From the sequence record PZ445429.1: a stretch of 64,000 bases of DNA; one strand, 5' to 3'. The stretch comes from a phage. Made by a program: the position numbers and the translations under genes. Shown in pieces: positions 8,771 through 48,281 of the stretch (the first letter of the stretch is position 1; each line of letters begins with the position of its first letter). Below the pieces are notes generated by a model. The model was not told where the DNA came from and ran no database searches. It saw only the letters and a list, made by a program, of their open reading frames with translations.

Positions 8771-9745
8771 TTAGTCGTATACTCGCTCTACTATACAAGG
8801 GATTACACCACCAGCACGAATCACTCGAATCTGGCAACCGATCTCTAAATCGAGAGCGTTAATATAATCAACGTTATTAAGAGTTGCTTTAACGATTGTG
8901 GCATCATCAATAATCACCGGTTCGAAATAACCAACTGGAGTTACTTTACCAGAAGCCCCTACTTGCCATTCAACTTTAACAAGTGTGGTAATTTCGCCTT
9001 CTTCATCCTCTTTAATAGCAAATGCACCACGAGGAAATTTATTAGTCCAACCTTCACGGAAGAATTTGTTGTTATCATTAATACGAACAACTTTACCATC
9101 TGTCGGAATCCATTTAAAGAAGGAACGAACATTAATAACTGTCAAGAAGTTCTCATTCTCTAGCCAAAGCATATCTTTTAAATAGGCTTCTGTAATACCG
9201 ACTGTTTCCGCTGAACACTGGATACCATATGCAACGAAGATTAAACCACCTTCACCAATACGTTGCATGAAATCATCACTATCTTTTAGGTTAATAGCAC
9301 CAGAAGCATAGTTACGTTTGTTCTCTACTTCTTTAGTAATGAGAACTTCACCAGTGATTTGAGTTGGTACTTTTTGGGAAATAGTTTTGGGGATGTTCAG
9401 CATTTTAACATTATGCGTTACATCATTCCCTAGAATACCGTTACCACGAGTTAACGCTTGAACAAACTCACCATTAATATATAATAGAGAAATCGCACAA
9501 CCATCTAACTTATCAGTTTCAACCTGACCAAGTGGGTTGAATGGAGCTTTATCACCACGATCGTAATAGACTTTCTGCAAAGAATACATACGATACAAAT
9601 GAGGGATATCACCTTTCGGTCCGATTTCTTCCTCTAGTGGGAATCTTTTAATCAGACGATCATATTCTTCATCGGAAATAAGACTCATTCCCTGGTAGTA
9701 CGCTTCTTGACAACGTTTAATAAAGTCTTTTACATTATTCATCAT
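8771..9745 (-). CDS. NAD-dependent DNA ligase, N-terminal part (adenylation plus OB fold)
   Basis: 324 aa; adenylation motif TDKLDGCAISLLY (KxDG); OB-like C-terminus. Confidence 0.85.
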   Translation of the reverse strand: MMNNVKDFIKRCQEAYYQGMSLISDEEYDRLIKRFPLEEEIGPKGDIPHLYRMYSLQKVYYDRGDKAPFNPLGQVETDKLDGCAISLLYINGEFVQALTRGNGILGNDVTHNVKMLNIPKTISQKVPTQITGEVLITKEVENKRNYASGAINLKDSDDFMQRIGEGGLIFVAYGIQCSAETVGITEAYLKDMLWLENENFLTVINVRSFFKWIPTDGKVVRINDNNKFFREGWTNKFPRGAFAIKEDEEGEITTLVKVEWQVGASGKVTPVGYFEPVIIDDATIVKATLNNVDYINALDLEIGCQIRVIRAGGVIPCIVERVYD

Positions 9746-9953
9746 CTGCGATTTCCATTTTGAGTTCTTTACTATACTGTGCAGCCATACCAGCTAAATC
9801 AGCAGCTTCTTTCAACCACGCATCTTTGTACGCTTTCTGGTTTGGAGTGCCGATACTATCCTGGTAATTGATTCTTGCTATGGAGAGCAAATTAAGTTTT
9901 GCTTGAATCTTTGGAAGTGTTATTGTCATTGCCATAATTGATCCTCTCATCAA
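9735..9953 (-). CDS. hypothetical protein
   Basis: 72-aa ORF directly downstream of a minus-strand N25-type promoter. Confidence 0.4.
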   Translation of the reverse strand: MMRGSIMAMTITLPKIQAKLNLLSIARINYQDSIGTPNQKAYKDAWLKEAADLAGMAAQYSKELKMEIADDE

Positions 9954-9964
9954 TTTATATAAAT

Positions 9965-9993
9965 ATTATATATGAAAACTGAGTCGAAAGCAA
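9965..9993 (-). promoter_or_regulatory. N25-type promoter (minus strand)
   Basis: Minus strand: TTGCTT, 17 bp, TATAAT then TATAAATTGATGAGAGGATC before ATG at 9953. Confidence 0.65.
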
Positions 9994-10000
9994 GTACATT

Positions 10001-10035
10001 TATAAAGAAAAAGCCAAGAACTAGACATTCTTGGC
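10001..10035 (-). terminator. rho-independent terminator (minus strand)
   Basis: GCCAAGA...TCTTGGC hairpin with U-tract on minus strand after gene ending 10021. Confidence 0.6.
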
Positions 10036-10329
10036 TTTGAGTTCTTCAGCTCGTTTCTGTACTTCATGCAAGACCTCTGATTCACTGAGGATTTGCGTAA
10101 AAGCGTAGAATAGCTGTGATGTAGTTTCTAGGGTATAAGGAAAAGAGAAGCCGGATTTCGTTGGAAACCACTCTCCAGTAATATCTTGGAGCCAGTAACG
10201 AATTCCCATGTATAGATTCCCACGAAATTCAGATACGGTTAGTCTTACTTGTTCCCCCTCCTTCTCCCAAAGCATGATGGACTGGTCGTCAACGTGTCCT
10301 TCATAGTTTTGATTTACCTGATCGCTCAT
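10021..10329 (-). CDS. hypothetical protein
   Basis: 102-aa ORF followed by a minus-strand terminator hairpin. Confidence 0.5.
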   Translation of the reverse strand: MSDQVNQNYEGHVDDQSIMLWEKEGEQVRLTVSEFRGNLYMGIRYWLQDITGEWFPTKSGFSFPYTLETTSQLFYAFTQILSESEVLHEVQKRAEELKAKNV

Positions 10330-10379
10330 TTACATATCCCAAATACACAAAAAGCCCCATATAGGGGCTAATTGGTTTC

Positions 10380-10676
10380 TTATCGGCCTACTGGAGAAGC
10401 ACGATCTAACTCTGACTGGAGGCTCGTCACACGGCGAACTTTCGCAACAGGAATGAAACGGAAGCTATCATTAGTACGAGAGAAAACGAGGATTTCATCT
10501 TCTTTCGGCTTACGGATGCGCTCACGTTTAATACGCTCAGCCAGGTATTTATCCTGAGCTGGATCAAATTCCATCGTACCCTGAAGGTACGTGGTTCCTT
10601 TCTGACGAAGTTTTTCGTAATGAAGATAAAACTCACCAAATTTTTCGCATTGAGCAATAATTTCAGCTTTATTCAT
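10380..10676 (-). CDS. hypothetical protein
   Basis: 98-aa ORF. Confidence 0.5.
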   Translation of the reverse strand: MNKAEIIAQCEKFGEFYLHYEKLRQKGTTYLQGTMEFDPAQDKYLAERIKRERIRKPKEDEILVFSRTNDSFRFIPVAKVRRVTSLQSELDRASPVGR

Positions 10677-10712
10677 AACTGTATTCCTTGTGTTGGTGGA
10701 TTTATCTAAGAA

Positions 10713-11123
10713 TTACTTAGTGATAGCTCGGATAGCTTCTGCCAGATGAGCAGCTGCTTTACCGGTCAGCTTGTCGATGATTGCGTCGTCCAGGAAGTCC
10801 GGGGCTAAGCCAGCATCAGAGAATGCAGAGCGAAGATCGGAGTGAGCCTGAGCTTTGGAAGTACGAGAACCACCAGAAGCTTTTTCTCCAGTAGATGCGC
10901 TTGATTTAGAAGTAGAGCCAGCAGCTTTCTTGATATACAGACCTGCTTTGGTCAGCTTCATACGGAAACCGTTCGGAGTTACACCATTTTCCTGAGCAAT
11001 TTCGCTAACAATTTCCATGCTAACGCCCGGACGCTCATCTTCTGGGAATTGCTCCATACGAGCAACGTAGTCGGAAGACATTTTTTCGAACAGTTCATCA
11101 GTCCACTGAGTTGGAGTAGTCAT
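10713..11123 (-). CDS. hypothetical protein sharing a repeat module with the 7029-7796 product
   Basis: 136-aa ORF, GC-richer codons. Confidence 0.5.
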   Translation of the reverse strand: MTTPTQWTDELFEKMSSDYVARMEQFPEDERPGVSMEIVSEIAQENGVTPNGFRMKLTKAGLYIKKAAGSTSKSSASTGEKASGGSRTSKAQAHSDLRSAFSDAGLAPDFLDDAIIDKLTGKAAAHLAEAIRAITK

Positions 11124-35331: not shown

Positions 35332-35959
35332 TAATAGTGGGGTGCCGAAACCACTTATGTAACAACACTGCCGTCCTAGTATAATAGGTATTATTAGGGC
35401 TTCACCGCCTGAAGATGTGGGTTCGAGTCCCACGGTCGGAAAGAGTTGGATAACTGGTGCTTCTAATGGCGAAGCAATCGCAGGCAGTTGCGCACTGCCA
35501 AAACCACGCGGTAGTTGGTTCCAGGCTAACCAACCACTCTTGAAAAGTATATACTATGGTTTTGCTTGTTCAAGAAGCTTCGCATCGAAAATCGGAGGTG
35601 CGATTTTATCCGACCGCGTGGAGGACGTCTCTCCGTTAAGTGACGAAAAGTGGGACGATTCAGGTAGAGCTGGATATGGAACACCTATACATATGCGGAG
35701 TGCGCACAAAGCATATTGCGGTGGTACTAAACGAAATTAGGAGTCATGACCTGCACAAGTTTAGTATGTCATAACCGATGTACATTCAGTACAAAAACCA
35801 CTGAAGCTAAGATAGATAGTCACCTTGACTTAAACTGGAAGATATTGTCTGACGGAAGGGCTGCAGAGCTTAATCTGAGGGGGCTGACCCTACCTACCGT
35901 CGGGTATCTTTAAGAGCTTTTATAAGAGTTCTTAAAAATACCTAACAAAAGGAATCAAT
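35332..35959 (+). ncRNA. ORF-poor GC-rich structured region downstream of an HNH gene
   Basis: ~630 nt; perfect T-arm-like hairpin GTGGG-TTCGAGT-CCCAC at 35417-35433 without matching acceptor; only a doubtful GTG-start ORF. Confidence 0.3.
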
Positions 35960-39482: not shown

Positions 39483-39511
39483 TTGCTTGAATGCTAAATT
39501 CTCTATATAAT
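39483..39511 (+). promoter_or_regulatory. N25-type early promoter (nadR-like operon)
   Basis: TTGCTT, 17 bp, TATAAT then TATAAATTTGAGAGAGG. Confidence 0.7.
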
Positions 39512-39541
39512 ATATTTATAAATTTGAGAGAGGAATCAAAT

Positions 39542-40597
39542 ATGATTAAGACTGGTCTAGTAATTGGTAAGTTCGCACCATTAACGCGTGGTCATATTAA
39601 CCTAATAAACACAGCAGCAACTATGTGTGAACGAGTTATTGTTGTAGTTAGTCATGATAATCGTTGGCTGGATAAGCAGAACACACGTGATCAGGAAGTA
39701 TTACAGTTAAAGAATCGACTTCGTTGGTTAGAACAAACTTACGCGGATATTGAGCACATTTCGGTAGAGTACATTATTGAAGATGATATTCCTGAATATC
39801 CGAATGGTTGGCCGGAATATGCTAGAATCCTTAATGAAAATTACGGACATTTGCCTGAGATCACCATTTTCTCTAGCGAACTAGACTATGATGCAGAATA
39901 TAAGAAATATCTGCCGAAGTTTGGTCATTATATTGTAGATTCTGATCGGACTCGTGTTCCAATCTCAGCTACAATGATTCGTAATGATCTTATGAAGTAT
40001 TGGGAGTTTCTTCCTAGCGTAGTTCGTAAAGATTACGTGCGTAAGGTTGTAATCATTGGGACTGAAAGCTCGGGAAAGACTACTTTAACAAAATACCTTG
40101 CGAAGCTATACAACACTTCGTGGGTAGAAGAATATGGCCGAACGTATTGTGAAGTTGATCTAGTTGGTAACGAAAATCTACTTACCAGTGAAGATTATAG
40201 TAAAATTGCGTTCAGACACAAAGAGCTAGAGTTTGAAGCAGAACGTACTGCAAATAAGATCATGTTTGTGGATACAAATGCTTTTATTACTGAGTTCTAC
40301 CACAGACTTTATGAACATCGTAAGAATCCTGTGGTTACAGCAATTGCAAAAGAAGAACATTACGATTTAGTAATTGTTCTAGCGCCTACTGTTAAGTGGG
40401 TAGATGATGGTTTACGTATTAACTCCGATCGTTCAATTACTTCTGAACTGTTCGAGCAGATGAAGAAAGAATTTCCAAATCAGTTCCCTGAAGGGCGTAC
40501 TGTTTACATCGACTCCCCGGACTACAAAGTTCGTATGGACGAAGCAGTAAACGCAGTAGACTGGCTGATTCATCACTTTAACGTTGGAGAGTTTTAA
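39542..40597 (+). CDS. nadR: NadR-like bifunctional NMN adenylyltransferase / ribosylnicotinamide kinase (no HTH domain)
   Basis: ATG 39542; GKFAPLTRGH motif, C-terminal Walker A GTESSGKTT. Confidence 0.8.
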   Translation: MIKTGLVIGKFAPLTRGHINLINTAATMCERVIVVVSHDNRWLDKQNTRDQEVLQLKNRLRWLEQTYADIEHISVEYIIEDDIPEYPNGWPEYARILNENYGHLPEITIFSSELDYDAEYKKYLPKFGHYIVDSDRTRVPISATMIRNDLMKYWEFLPSVVRKDYVRKVVIIGTESSGKTTLTKYLAKLYNTSWVEEYGRTYCEVDLVGNENLLTSEDYSKIAFRHKELEFEAERTANKIMFVDTNAFITEFYHRLYEHRKNPVVTAIAKEEHYDLVIVLAPTVKWVDDGLRINSDRSITSELFEQMKKEFPNQFPEGRTVYIDSPDYKVRMDEAVNAVDWLIHHFNVGEF

Positions 40598-42462: not shown

Positions 42463-42539
42463 GGGGGTGTAATCGAATTGGCATAGGTACTGGACTTAAA
42501 ATTCAGGTTTTGTGGGTTCGAATCCCACCACCCCTACCA
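42463..42539 (+). tRNA. tRNA with TAA anticodon (Leu-type) but class-I short variable arm
   Basis: Acceptor GGGGGTG/CACCCCT, T-arm GTGGG-TTCGAAT-CCCAC, loop CTTAAAA, 5-nt variable region, A73, CCA. Confidence 0.6.
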
Positions 42540-43453: not shown

Positions 43454-43534
43454 GGGGGATTGGCTCAGTGGCGACGGCGCCTGGCTGTAGACCGGGTATA
43501 TCACGCGGAGGTTCGAGTCCTCCATCCCCCACCA
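43454..43534 (+). tRNA. tRNA-Tyr (GTA)
   Basis: Acceptor GGGGGAT/ATCCCCC, T-arm GGAGG-TTCGAGT-CCTCC, loop CTGTAGA, 10-nt variable arm, CCA. Confidence 0.7.
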
Positions 43535-43703: not shown

Positions 43704-43778
43704 GCACCTTTAGCTGAGATGGATTAGCGCTTGCCTGAAGAGCTTGAGAGGTTGGATCGTTACCAACGGGGTGCACCA
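43704..43778 (+). tRNA. tRNA-Phe-like (GAA)
   Basis: Acceptor GCACCTT/GGGGTGC, D-stem GCTG/TAGC, loop CTGAAGA; two U-U mismatches in anticodon stem, non-canonical T-loop ATCGTTA. Confidence 0.5.
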
Positions 43779-44599: not shown

Positions 44600-44685
44600 G
44601 GGCCGTTGGCTGAATGGTTTAAGCGCCGGACTGTTAATCCGTATCCGCAAGGATAAAGTAGGTTCGACTCCTACACGGCCCGCCA
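44600..44685 (+). tRNA. tRNA-Asn-type (GTT) with unusually long variable region
   Basis: Acceptor GGGCCGT/ACGGCCC, anticodon arm CCGGA-CTGTTAA-TCCGT, 15-nt variable region with GCAA-loop hairpin, G73, CCA. Confidence 0.6.
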
Positions 44686-48200: not shown

Positions 48201-48281
48201 GGGGATGTGGCGAAATTGGCAGACGCGCTAGATTTAGGTTCTAGTCTTCGGGTGTGGGTTCGAGTCCCTCCATCCCTACCA
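48201..48281 (+). tRNA. tRNA-Leu (TAG), type II
   Basis: Acceptor GGGGATG/CATCCCT, D-arm TGGCGAAATTGGCAGACGCG, anticodon arm CTAGA-TTTAGGT-TCTAG, extended variable arm, CCA. Confidence 0.75.

What the first reader, a model, noticed from the sequence alone, without database searches (positions are those of the whole stretch)
42463..42539. Class-I-architecture tRNA carrying a Leu-type TAA anticodon
The hand fold gives a 74-nt body plus CCA with a 5-nt variable region, yet the anticodon loop CTTAAAA reads TAA (Leu UUA/UUG) and the discriminator is A. Bacterial tRNA-Leu is normally type II with a long variable arm. Either the fold or identity is mis-assigned, or the phage carries a noncanonical decoder for the abundant UUA codon.
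Basis: seen in the sequence. Interest (0 to 1): 0.5.

Follow-up and report, generated by a model that had tools for sequence, protein, structure and literature searches.

The report
Phage leucine tRNA lacking long arm
This is a real, strongly conserved leucine tRNA of a T5-like phage that has lost the long extra arm bacterial leucine tRNAs normally carry yet still reads UUA/UUG as leucine, and it belongs to a large, little-discussed class of short leucine tRNAs in phages and mobile tRNA arrays.

Summary
Window 42463-42539 (+) is a 77-nt tRNA gene with anticodon UAA, a 5-nt variable loop (GUUUU), A73 and an encoded CCA. ARAGORN calls it, and Rfam scores it at 57.4 bits.

The window is a T5-like phage, and the gene lies in its roughly 29-gene tRNA cluster. 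The fold is not mis-assigned and the tRNA is not a recoding device.

- **Leucine identity set:** it keeps the published E. coli set: A73, A15-U48, G18G19, A20a, U8-A14 and a canonical T-loop. It also has G1.U72 and G13.A22, as host leuZ does.
- **Scaffold and anticodons:** more than 120 distinct 77-nt relatives carry only Leu anticodons (UAA, UAG, CAA, CAG, GAG, AAG). G13, U48 and A73 are invariant although they were not selected for.
- **Covariation:** 99.1% of cells pair; score 0.94 against 0.24 for shuffles.
- **Codon meaning:** UUA/UUG codons align with Leu codons in T5 orthologs as often as CUN codons do.

About 18% of sampled phage tRNA-Leu(UAA) genes have this short form.

Public records already annotate the gene as tRNA-Leu. 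What appears undescribed is the short architecture as a phage-wide class, and its implied charging by enterobacterial LeuRS. Charging itself is inferred, not shown. Moderate interest.

The parts
42463..42539 (+). Complete tRNA-Leu(UAA) gene, 77 nt, type I (short variable loop), CCA encoded
   Evidence: ARAGORN. Rfam RF00005 at 57.4 bits. 100% identical in most of 339 T5-like phage records.
42463..42469 (+). Acceptor stem 5' strand GGGGGUG (positions 1-7). G1 forms a wobble pair with U72.
   Evidence: Sequence. Pairs 1-7 with 66-72 covary in the family. Host leuZ also has G1.U72.
42472..42488 (+). D-arm: stem A10-U25, U11.G24, C12-G23; G13.A22 mismatch; loop A14 A15 U16 U17 G18 G19 C20 A20a U21
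   Evidence: Infernal alignment. G13 is invariant in 107/107 relatives although not in the search pattern. The design matches E. coli leuZ.
42490..42506 (+). Anticodon arm CUGGA-CUUAAAA-UUCAG. The A36-A37-A38 context is the one the review describes for the TrmL substrates tRNA-Leu(UAA/CAA).
   Evidence: All five pairs covary. TrmL determinants from PMC9976931.
42497..42499 (+). Anticodon UAA (reads UUA, and UUG by wobble)
   Evidence: ARAGORN places the anticodon at position 35 of the gene. Sequence.
42507..42511 (+). Variable loop G44 U45 U46 U47 U48: 5 nt, no hairpin. U48 is the partner of A15 (Levitt pair).
   Evidence: U48 is invariant in 107/107 relatives. The alignment with type II tRNA-Leu shows a clean gap where the variable-arm hairpin sits.
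42512..42528 (+). T-arm GUGGG-UUCGAAU-CCCAC (U54, U55, C56, A58 present)
42529..42535 (+). Acceptor stem 3' strand CACCCCU (positions 66-72)
42536..42536 (+). Discriminator A73, the major Leu identity element in E. coli
   Evidence: A73 is invariant in 107/107 viral relatives, 127/127 bacterial matches and 19/19 of an independent sample.
42537..42539 (+). Genomically encoded 3' CCA
48201..48281 (+). Companion isoacceptor tRNA-Leu(UAG), 81 nt, with a reduced 9-nt variable region UCUUCGGGU. It has the same D-loop design (A13.A22, AAUUGGCAG), U48 and A73.
   Evidence: ARAGORN. Sequences. Alignment A1.

Best explanation
It is a functional phage tRNA-Leu(UAA) whose variable arm has been reduced to the 5-nt loop of a class I tRNA.

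**Proposed mechanism**
- The gene is transcribed with the small ORFs of the T5-like tRNA cluster and processed to a 77-nt tRNA that already carries CCA.
- It is leucylated by the host (Escherichia/Salmonella) LeuRS. That enzyme ignores the anticodon and does not need the long arm. It reads A73 and the D-loop/T-loop/variable-loop hinge (A15-U48, G18G19, A20a, U8-A14), all of which this tRNA keeps.
- It then decodes UUA, and UUG by wobble, as leucine. This supplements a host tRNA pool tuned to CUG, for a 40% G+C phage that uses UUA about twice as often as the host sample.
- Its partner tRNA-Leu(UAG) does the same for CUA, which the phage uses about four times as often.

**Shown:** the gene, the cloverleaf, the covariation, strong purifying selection, the presence of the identity elements, the exclusive association of the scaffold with Leu anticodons, the Leu meaning of UUA/UUG, and the codon bias.

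**Inferred:** expression, anticodon-loop modification, and actual charging by LeuRS.
For: 1. **Bona fide tRNA.**
2. **Cloverleaf supported by covariation.** In 125 distinct 77-nt homologs, 99.1% of cells pair. The covariation score is 0.941, against 0.240 for shuffles and 0.09-0.17 for slid partners.
3. **Purifying selection.** The gene is at least 99% identical in 291 phage records, while the surrounding 2.5 kb is mostly 90-95% identical. In IMG/VR locus L090 the tRNA is 100% identical while the flanks are 67-87% identical.
4. **Identity set present.** The E. coli Leu identity set from PMC9976931 and PMC6614811 is A73, A15-U48, G18G19, A20a, A14, U54-A58 and G18:U55/G19:C56. All are present. 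The gene aligns end to end with E. coli leuZ except for the variable-arm hairpin, and shares G1.U72 and G13..A22 with it.
5. **Scaffold tied to Leu anticodons.** A fixed-length pattern with a free anticodon recovered UAG 75, UAA 32, CAA 22, CAG 7 and GAG 4 from viral contigs, against 2 non-Leu hits that lack G13/U48 or A73. In bacterial assemblies, the sequences with G13, U48 and A73 carry Leu anticodons (including AAG) with one doubtful exception. G13, U48 and A73 were not in the pattern, yet are invariant in 107/107. An identity that ignores the anticodon but needs A73 and no long arm points to LeuRS.
6. **UUA/UUG mean leucine.** 132/146 window UUA codons and 77/82 UUG codons align with Leu codons in T5 orthologs, the same rate as CUN codons and as overall amino-acid identity (90.4%). 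UUA<->CUA exchange is frequent.
7. **Codon usage.** UUA is 21% of Leu codons against 10% in the host sample, and CUA 19% against 4%.
8. **Long arm dispensable in vitro.** E. coli tRNA-Leu variants lacking the long variable arm remain substrates, as summarised in the review.
9. **No phage synthetase found.** No synthetase appears among the window's ORFs of 330 aa or more.
Against: - No aminoacylation or expression data exist for this gene.
- E. coli LeuRS failed to charge the one natural bacterial type I tRNA-Leu that has been tested (S. coelicolor CAA), and that paper describes EcLeuRS as charging only type II. However, that tRNA has the variable loop ACAGC with C48, so it lacks the A15-U48 element.
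- The EcLeuRS C-terminal domain contacts variable-arm nucleotides 47f-47i in the crystal structure, so some loss of affinity is expected.
- Several identity elements (A73, A15-U48, AAUUGG D-loop) also occur in other tRNAs of this phage, for example Lys(CUU). The element list alone is therefore not specific, and the comparative evidence carries the argument.
- Phage T5 itself does without this gene, so it is not essential to the lineage.
- The acceptor-stem covariation is inflated, because I kept only sequences with at least 6 of 7 acceptor pairs. The other three helices were not filtered.
Confidence: 0.85

Rival explanations
1. Noncanonical decoder: the class I body is charged by a synthetase other than LeuRS, so UUA/UUG codons are read, fully or partly, as another amino acid (for example Phe, because A35, A36, G44, U45 and A73 recall tRNA-Phe).
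For: The body has class I architecture and A73, which many synthetases share. A35-A36 overlap the Phe anticodon. ARAGORN did not call a tRNA-Phe in the window.
Against: - UUA/UUG align with Leu codons in T5 orthologs at the same rate as CUN codons. Only 2 of 146 UUA positions align with Phe.
- The same scaffold carries UAG, CAG, GAG, CAA and AAG anticodons, which no anticodon-reading synthetase would accept as one set.
- There is no G3:U70 (excludes AlaRS) and no long arm (excludes SerRS).
- The D-arm matches leuZ.
- A separate tRNA with a GAA anticodon exists at 43704-43778.
Confidence: 0.03
2. Decaying or non-functional tRNA relic: a tRNA-Leu gene that lost its variable arm by deletion and is no longer used.
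For: T5 itself lacks the gene. Phage APCEc03 carries a chimeric, apparently broken copy. The phage cluster contains other odd tRNAs.
Against: - The gene is perfectly conserved in hundreds of genomes whose flanks have diverged.
- All helices are intact, with compensatory changes across more than 120 distinct relatives.
- G13, U48 and A73 are invariant.
- CCA is retained.
- Variable-region lengths are bimodal (5 nt, or 11-18 nt; none from 6 to 10) in an unbiased sample. That fits a discrete functional class, not erosion.
Confidence: 0.04
3. Primarily an anti-defence tRNA: its main role is to replace or decoy for host tRNA-Leu that is attacked during infection, and the missing arm makes it insensitive to factors that dock on the long arm of type II tRNAs. 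Codon supplementation would be secondary.
For: - Phage tRNAs have been proposed to evade tRNA-targeting defences (PMC10264068), and tRNA arrays have been called putative anti-defence systems (PMC12803027).
- A retron HEPN nuclease cleaves tRNA-Leu.
- Short tRNA-Leu genes are concentrated in phage and mobile tRNA arrays.
Against: - No defence factor that recognises the tRNA-Leu arm is known in enterobacteria from anything I could find.
- The retron cut is at U33, not in the arm.
- MenT3 prefers tRNA-Ser over tRNA-Leu.
- Many phages keep type II and type I tRNA-Leu side by side.
- The codon-usage match is enough to explain retention.
- This rival still requires the tRNA to be a working tRNA-Leu.
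Confidence: 0.08

Closest known systems
E. coli tRNA-Leu(UAA), gene leuZ (type II, 87 nt)
   Same: Anticodon UAA with an A36A37A38 loop context, G1.U72, three-pair D-stem with G13..A22, D-loop AAUYGGYAK, A14, A15-U48, G18G19, A20a, canonical T-loop, A73 and CCA (alignment A1).
   Different: leuZ has a 15-nt variable arm with a hairpin, where the phage gene has a 5-nt loop GUUUU. Overall sequence similarity is too low for a blastn hit to any E. coli chromosome.
Streptomyces coelicolor type I tRNA-Leu(CAA) (PMC6614811)
   Same: A natural bacterial-system tRNA-Leu with a 5-nt variable loop that coexists with type II tRNA-Leu and is served by a single LeuRS.
   Different: - Its variable loop is ACAGC with C48; the phage gene has GUUUU with U48.
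- Its anticodon is CAA.
- In that system A73 is not an identity element, and the ScoLeuRS leucine-specific domain is needed.
- E. coli LeuRS does not charge it.
- A second phage type I scaffold (variable loop NMAGU/ACAGC, D-arm GNCC-AAYGGCAG) resembles it more closely than the window's gene does.
Mitochondrial tRNA-Leu(UUR)
   Same: Class I architecture, UAA anticodon, and A73 and A14 as identity elements (mt-leucine section).
   Different: It is served by a dedicated mitochondrial LeuRS and has a loose, mismatch-rich structure. The phage tRNA has fully canonical bacterial D- and T-loops and must use the host's bacterial LeuRS.
Type II tRNA-Leu(UAA) of related phages (Vibrio phage JSF12, 88 nt; Aeromonas phage LAh_8, 84 nt)
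   Same: Same anticodon loop CUUAAAA, the same D-loop family, U48 and A73. They sit in comparable phage tRNA clusters.
   Different: They retain the variable-arm hairpin. In those two phages it is the UAG isoacceptor that has the 77-nt type I form.
Engineered E. coli tRNA-Leu variants lacking the variable arm (Asahara 1998 and Larkin 2002, as summarised in PMC9976931)
   Same: They show that E. coli LeuRS activity survives loss of the long arm as long as A73 and the D/T-loop tertiary pairs are intact. The phage tRNA keeps exactly those features.
   Different: Those are laboratory constructs. This is a natural, selected gene. I could not read the primary papers, so no quantitative comparison is available.

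Membership tests
Canonical tRNA (Rfam RF00005) | Score above the curated threshold with a full-length cloverleaf (7-bp acceptor, D-arm, 5-bp anticodon stem with 7-nt loop, 5-bp T-stem with 7-nt loop) | tested here: met
   57.4 bits against a gathering score of 29, model positions 1-71 of 71. Also called by ARAGORN.
Canonical tRNA (Rfam RF00005) | Helices maintained by compensatory substitutions in homologs | tested here: met
   99.1% of cells paired. 18 of 20 pairs show double changes. Covariation score 0.941 against 0.240 for shuffles.
Bacterial (E. coli-type) tRNA-Leu | Discriminator A73 | tested here: met
   A at 42536. Invariant in all relatives.
Bacterial (E. coli-type) tRNA-Leu | Levitt pair A15-U48 | tested here: met
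   A15 at 42477 and U48 at 42511. U48 is 107/107 although it was not in the search pattern. G15-C48 occurs as a covarying alternative in a second scaffold.
Bacterial (E. coli-type) tRNA-Leu | D-loop design: G18G19 placement, A20a, A14-U8, unpaired 13-22 | tested here: met
   D-loop AAUUGGCAU with G13.A22, against leuZ AAUCGGUAG with G13..A22.
Bacterial (E. coli-type) tRNA-Leu | T-loop U54-A58, U55 and C56 for the D/T-loop tertiary pairs | tested here: met
   T-loop UUCGAAU.
Bacterial (E. coli-type) tRNA-Leu | Long variable arm (type II architecture, more than 10 nt) | tested here: not met
   The variable region is 5 nt, GUUUU. This is a structural hallmark of the family, but the review states it is not an identity determinant for E. 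coli LeuRS.
Bacterial (E. coli-type) tRNA-Leu | Anticodon from the Leu codon boxes, and Leu meaning of the cognate codons | tested here: met
   Anticodon UAA. UUA/UUG align with Leu codons in T5 orthologs, 132/146 and 77/82.
Bacterial (E. coli-type) tRNA-Leu | Aminoacylation with leucine by LeuRS | not testable with these tools
   Needs an in vitro charging assay or charged-tRNA sequencing.
Streptomyces-type type I tRNA-Leu | 5-nt variable loop | tested here: met
   GUUUU, against ACAGC in S. coelicolor.
Streptomyces-type type I tRNA-Leu | Same scaffold (variable loop ACAGC with C48) and recognition independent of A73 | tested here: not met
   The variable loop differs, with U48 in place of C48. 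A73 is invariant across the phage family, which suggests it is used.
Suppressor or recoding tRNA | Anticodon complementary to a stop codon, or cognate sense codons decoded as a non-standard amino acid | tested here: not met
   Anticodon UAA pairs with the sense codons UUA/UUG, not with a stop codon. Codon-level alignment shows Leu.

The most novel reading that the evidence does not exclude
The short arm is not a neutral deletion. It would be the hallmark of a mobile-element lineage of tRNA-Leu, found in phages and horizontally transferred tRNA arrays and making up about a fifth of phage tRNA-Leu(UAA) genes. That lineage would be selected because an armless tRNA-Leu escapes host or competitor factors that dock on the long arm of type II tRNAs, while remaining a substrate of ordinary bacterial LeuRS. 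This would also overturn the published generalisation that E. coli-type LeuRS charges only type II tRNA-Leu.
Probability: 0.15. Interest if true: 0.7.

Novelty: new member of a known kind. Interest (0 to 1): 0.4.

Why it matters
Textbooks and recent primary literature treat the long variable arm as a defining feature of bacterial tRNA-Leu. The one studied exception (Streptomyces) was presented as rare and dependent on a specialised LeuRS, and E. coli LeuRS was described as charging type II only.

Here a short-armed tRNA-Leu is fixed in hundreds of phages of E. coli and Salmonella. The same architecture accounts for about 18% of a sample of phage tRNA-Leu(UAA) genes and is frequent in dense tRNA arrays of bacterial assemblies.

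If these tRNAs are charged by ordinary host LeuRS, as the comparative evidence indicates, they are a natural confirmation of the in vitro identity rules (A73 plus hinge geometry, arm dispensable). They would also be a ready-made minimal scaffold for tRNA engineering.

Practically, annotation pipelines and readers should not treat a class I tRNA with a Leu anticodon in a phage as an error or as evidence of recoding.

Tried and rejected
- **Single-sequence folding** gave a non-cloverleaf minimum-energy structure with an unremarkable z-score. I rejected it as uninformative for a tRNA and replaced it with covariation.
- **blastn of the tRNA against 5,426 E. coli genomes** found only 23-nt T-arm matches on plasmids. 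There is no close host parent gene, so recent capture from the host is not supported.
- **Literature searches** for a description of T5-type or phage type I tRNA-Leu found none.
  - The reviews of noncanonical tRNAs, phage tRNA evasion and tRNA arrays do not mention it.
  - The library lacks the 1980s T5 tRNA papers, and Larkin 2002 could not be opened.
- **Ochre-suppressor reading:** the anticodon is UAA, not UUA, so this was rejected.
- **tRNA-Phe(GAA) derivative:** rejected on the D-arm match to leuZ, the multi-anticodon family, the codon alignment, and a separate GAA tRNA at 43704.
- **The T5 reference as a source of prior experimental notes:** T5 lacks the gene. Its suppressor-test annotations concern other tRNAs only.
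- **A phage-encoded LeuRS:** no synthetase appears among ORFs of 330 aa or more.
- **Promoter/terminator scan around the gene**: fewer matches than in shuffled sequence, so no conclusion was drawn.

Full report
**1. What is there**

ARAGORN reports a tRNA-Leu with anticodon taa at exactly 42463-42539 on the + strand. Rfam's tRNA model matches 42463-42536 at 57.4 bits (threshold 29) over its full length.

Read against the standard numbering, the gene is:
- G1-G7 GGGGGUG, U8 A9;
- D-stem A10 U11 C12 pairing with G23 G24 U25;
- a G13.A22 mismatch;
- D-loop A14 A15 U16 U17 G18 G19 C20 A20a U21, then A26;
- anticodon stem CUGGA/UUCAG with loop CUUAAAA (anticodon UAA, 42497-42499);
- variable loop GUUUU (42507-42511);
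- T-arm GUGGG-UUCGAAU-CCCAC;
- 3' acceptor strand CACCCCU (G1.U72 wobble);
- A73 and an encoded CCA.

The thermodynamic fold of the lone sequence is not a cloverleaf, so I did not rely on it.

**2. Context**

The window is a T5-like phage (Demerecviridae). The 2.5 kb around the gene is 90-96% identical to several hundred Salmonella, Escherichia and Klebsiella phages. The gene lies in a cluster of about 29 tRNA genes interspersed with small ORFs. Public records annotate this gene as tRNA-Leu.

The large ORFs of the window are the usual T5 replication and nucleotide-metabolism genes, and none is a synthetase.

The reference phage T5 does not have this gene. The interval between its tRNA-Ile2(CAU) and tRNA-Tyr holds an HNH endonuclease (hegA) and small ORFs. 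Its only tRNA-Leu is an 85-nt type II UAG species.

**3. Is it a working gene?**

The 77 nt are at least 99% identical in 291 phage records, although the surrounding region is mostly only 90-95% identical. In one IMG/VR contig the tRNA is identical while the flanks are 67-87% identical.

More distant relatives are also 77 nt long but carry the anticodon UAG: Vibrio phage JSF12, Aeromonas phage LAh_8 and Obesumbacterium phage Ob_P. They have different acceptor and anticodon stems.

On an ungapped alignment of 127 such sequences, the cloverleaf has 99.1% of cells paired and 18 of 20 pairs with compensatory changes. The covariation score is 0.941, against 0.240 for shuffles and 0.09-0.17 for slid partners. 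One caveat applies: I kept only sequences with at least 6 of 7 acceptor pairs, which favours helix 1. The other helices were not filtered.

**4. Is it leucine?**

Four independent lines point to Leu.

[quoted passage not shown] It states that neither the anticodon nor the long variable arm is required. The Streptomyces paper adds A14. All of these are present. Aligned with E. coli leuZ, fetched from K-12, the phage gene matches along its whole length except for a clean gap at the variable-arm hairpin. It shares G1.U72 and the unpaired 13-22 position.

(b) *Invariance of unselected positions.* G13, U48 and A73 were not part of my search pattern, yet they are invariant in 107/107 sequences.

(c) *The scaffold follows the amino acid, not the anticodon.* With the anticodon left free, the additional anticodons found in viral contigs were CAA (22), CAG (7) and GAG (4), all Leu. 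Only two non-Leu hits appeared, and both lack G13/U48 or A73. In bacterial assemblies the same holds, now including AAG. The 17 CAU hits belong to a different scaffold with U13/A48. Among synthetases that ignore the anticodon, AlaRS needs G3:U70 and SerRS needs the long arm. Only LeuRS fits.

(d) *Codon meaning.* In 29 ortholog pairs with T5, which lacks the gene, window UUA aligns with a Leu codon at 132/146 positions and UUG at 77/82. That is the same as for CUN codons and for overall amino-acid identity (90.4%), with frequent UUA<->CUA exchange. Recoding is therefore excluded.

**5. What it is for**

The window (40% G+C) uses UUA for 21% of its leucines and CUA for 19%, against 10% and 4% in a 50-kb E. 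coli sample, where CUG is 58%. The phage's two tRNA-Leu genes (UAA and UAG) read exactly the enriched codons, which is the classical codon-supplementation pattern.

The anticodon loop has the C/U32-U33-U34-A35-A36-A37-A38 context that the review describes for the TrmL substrates tRNA-Leu(UAA/CAA). Modification like the host tRNA is therefore plausible but untested.

**6. The open point: charging**

Fan et al. found that E. coli LeuRS did not charge the natural type I tRNA-Leu(CAA) of S. coelicolor, and they describe the E. coli enzyme as charging only type II. That tRNA has the variable loop ACAGC with C48, so it lacks the A15-U48 element that the E. coli enzyme needs. The phage tRNA keeps it.

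The same group also notes that the EcLeuRS C-terminal domain touches variable-arm nucleotides 47f-47i. Some loss of affinity is therefore likely.

I infer charging from conservation and comparative evidence. It has not been shown.

**7. How unusual is it?**

I sampled phage tRNAs only by the anticodon loop CUUAAAA and a standard T-loop. Of 108 distinct tRNA-Leu(UAA) genes, 19 (18%) have a 5-nt variable loop and 89 have 11-18 nt. None has 6-10 nt.

All 19 have A73. Sixteen have U48, and three have C48, at least two of them with G15. Most use a second D-arm design (GNCC-AAYGGCAG-AGNC, variable loop NMAGU) that resembles the Streptomyces loop. Phages therefore carry at least two type I tRNA-Leu scaffolds, and the window's gene belongs to the AAUUGGYAU/RUUYU one.

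In bacterial assemblies the short form sits mostly in dense tRNA arrays: a median of 8 tRNAs per 8 kb, and several loci with more than 20. This is the kind of array described as horizontally mobile (PMC8421152).

Within the T5 group, the UAG isoacceptor comes with 13-nt (T5), 9-nt (this window) and 5-nt (Ob_P) variable regions.

I found no paper that describes short-armed tRNA-Leu in phages. The searchable library is incomplete, however, and omits the older T5 literature.

**8. Verdict**

The worry about mis-assignment is unfounded, and the idea of a noncanonical decoder holds only for architecture.

The gene itself is already annotated in public records, and type I tRNA-Leu is a known kind (mitochondria, Streptomyces). 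I therefore file it as a new member of a known kind.

Two points raise its interest above the ordinary:
- the short form is a common, discrete class in phages and mobile tRNA arrays;
- its presence in phages of E. coli and Salmonella implies that ordinary enterobacterial LeuRS charges a natural type I tRNA-Leu, contrary to a published generalisation.

The idea that arm loss is adaptive, as escape from arm-docking toxins such as MenT3, is unsupported here and remains a low-probability speculation.

Noticed in passing
window 44600-44685 (+): tRNA-Asn(GUU) is 86 nt long, with an apparent 12-nt hairpin AUCCGCAAGGAU in the variable region. That would be a type-II-like Asn tRNA, the reverse oddity of the Leu case. 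T5's own tRNA-Asn is 78 nt (L278 7953-8030).
   Followed up: no
window 43704-43778 (+): A tRNA found only by Rfam (33.4 bits) and missed by ARAGORN. Its anticodon loop CUGAAGA gives GAA (Phe). It has two U.U mismatches in the anticodon stem and an aberrant T-loop AUCGUUA. T5 annotates tRNA-Phe(GAA) at the syntenic position.
   Followed up: partly
window 35369-35442 (+): ARAGORN labels a 74-nt class I tRNA with anticodon UCA as 'tRNA-SeC'. It has no encoded CCA, and its anticodon would read UGA. A similar call exists in Obesumbacterium phage Ob_P (L005 10257-10328).
   Followed up: no
window 48201-48281 (+): tRNA-Leu(UAG) has an intermediate 9-nt variable region UCUUCGGGU (a possible C-UUCG-G mini-hairpin) and a U50.U64 mismatch in the T-stem. 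The same isoacceptor is 85 nt in T5 and 77 nt in Ob_P, JSF12 and LAh_8.
   Followed up: partly
window 43454-43534 (+): tRNA-Tyr(GUA) is only 81 nt (about a 10-nt variable region), against 88 nt in T5. Arm shortening therefore also affects another type II tRNA of this phage.
   Followed up: no
L004 (Escherichia phage APCEc03) about 1293-1370: A chimeric sequence joins the 5' part of the Leu(UAA) type I gene to parts of a Leu(UAG) type I gene. ARAGORN does not call it. It looks like recombination between the two paralogs that deleted the intervening tRNA genes, or an assembly artefact.
   Followed up: partly
L278 (phage T5, NC_005859) 9618-11063: T5 has the HNH endonuclease hegA plus ORFs T5.072-074 where the window phage has the tRNA-Leu(UAA) gene. 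This fits homing-endonuclease-driven turnover of the tRNA cluster. The record's tRNA notes also report amber-suppressor tests for each T5 tRNA.
   Followed up: partly
L233 (Candidatus Uabimicrobium amorphum chromosome) 524-1120; L174 and L200 (Tumebacillus avium chromosome): Bacterial chromosomes also carry short tRNA-Leu genes. Uabimicrobium has a repeat of five 74-nt tRNA-Leu genes (UAG, CAA, UAA, AAG, UAA) interleaved with tRNA-Tyr. Tumebacillus has a 77-nt tRNA-Leu(CAA) inside what look like ordinary housekeeping tRNA arrays.
   Followed up: partly
window 39491-40597 (+): A 368-aa ORF combines a cytidylyltransferase-like domain with an AAA_28 domain. It lies just upstream of the tRNA cluster.
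   Followed up: no
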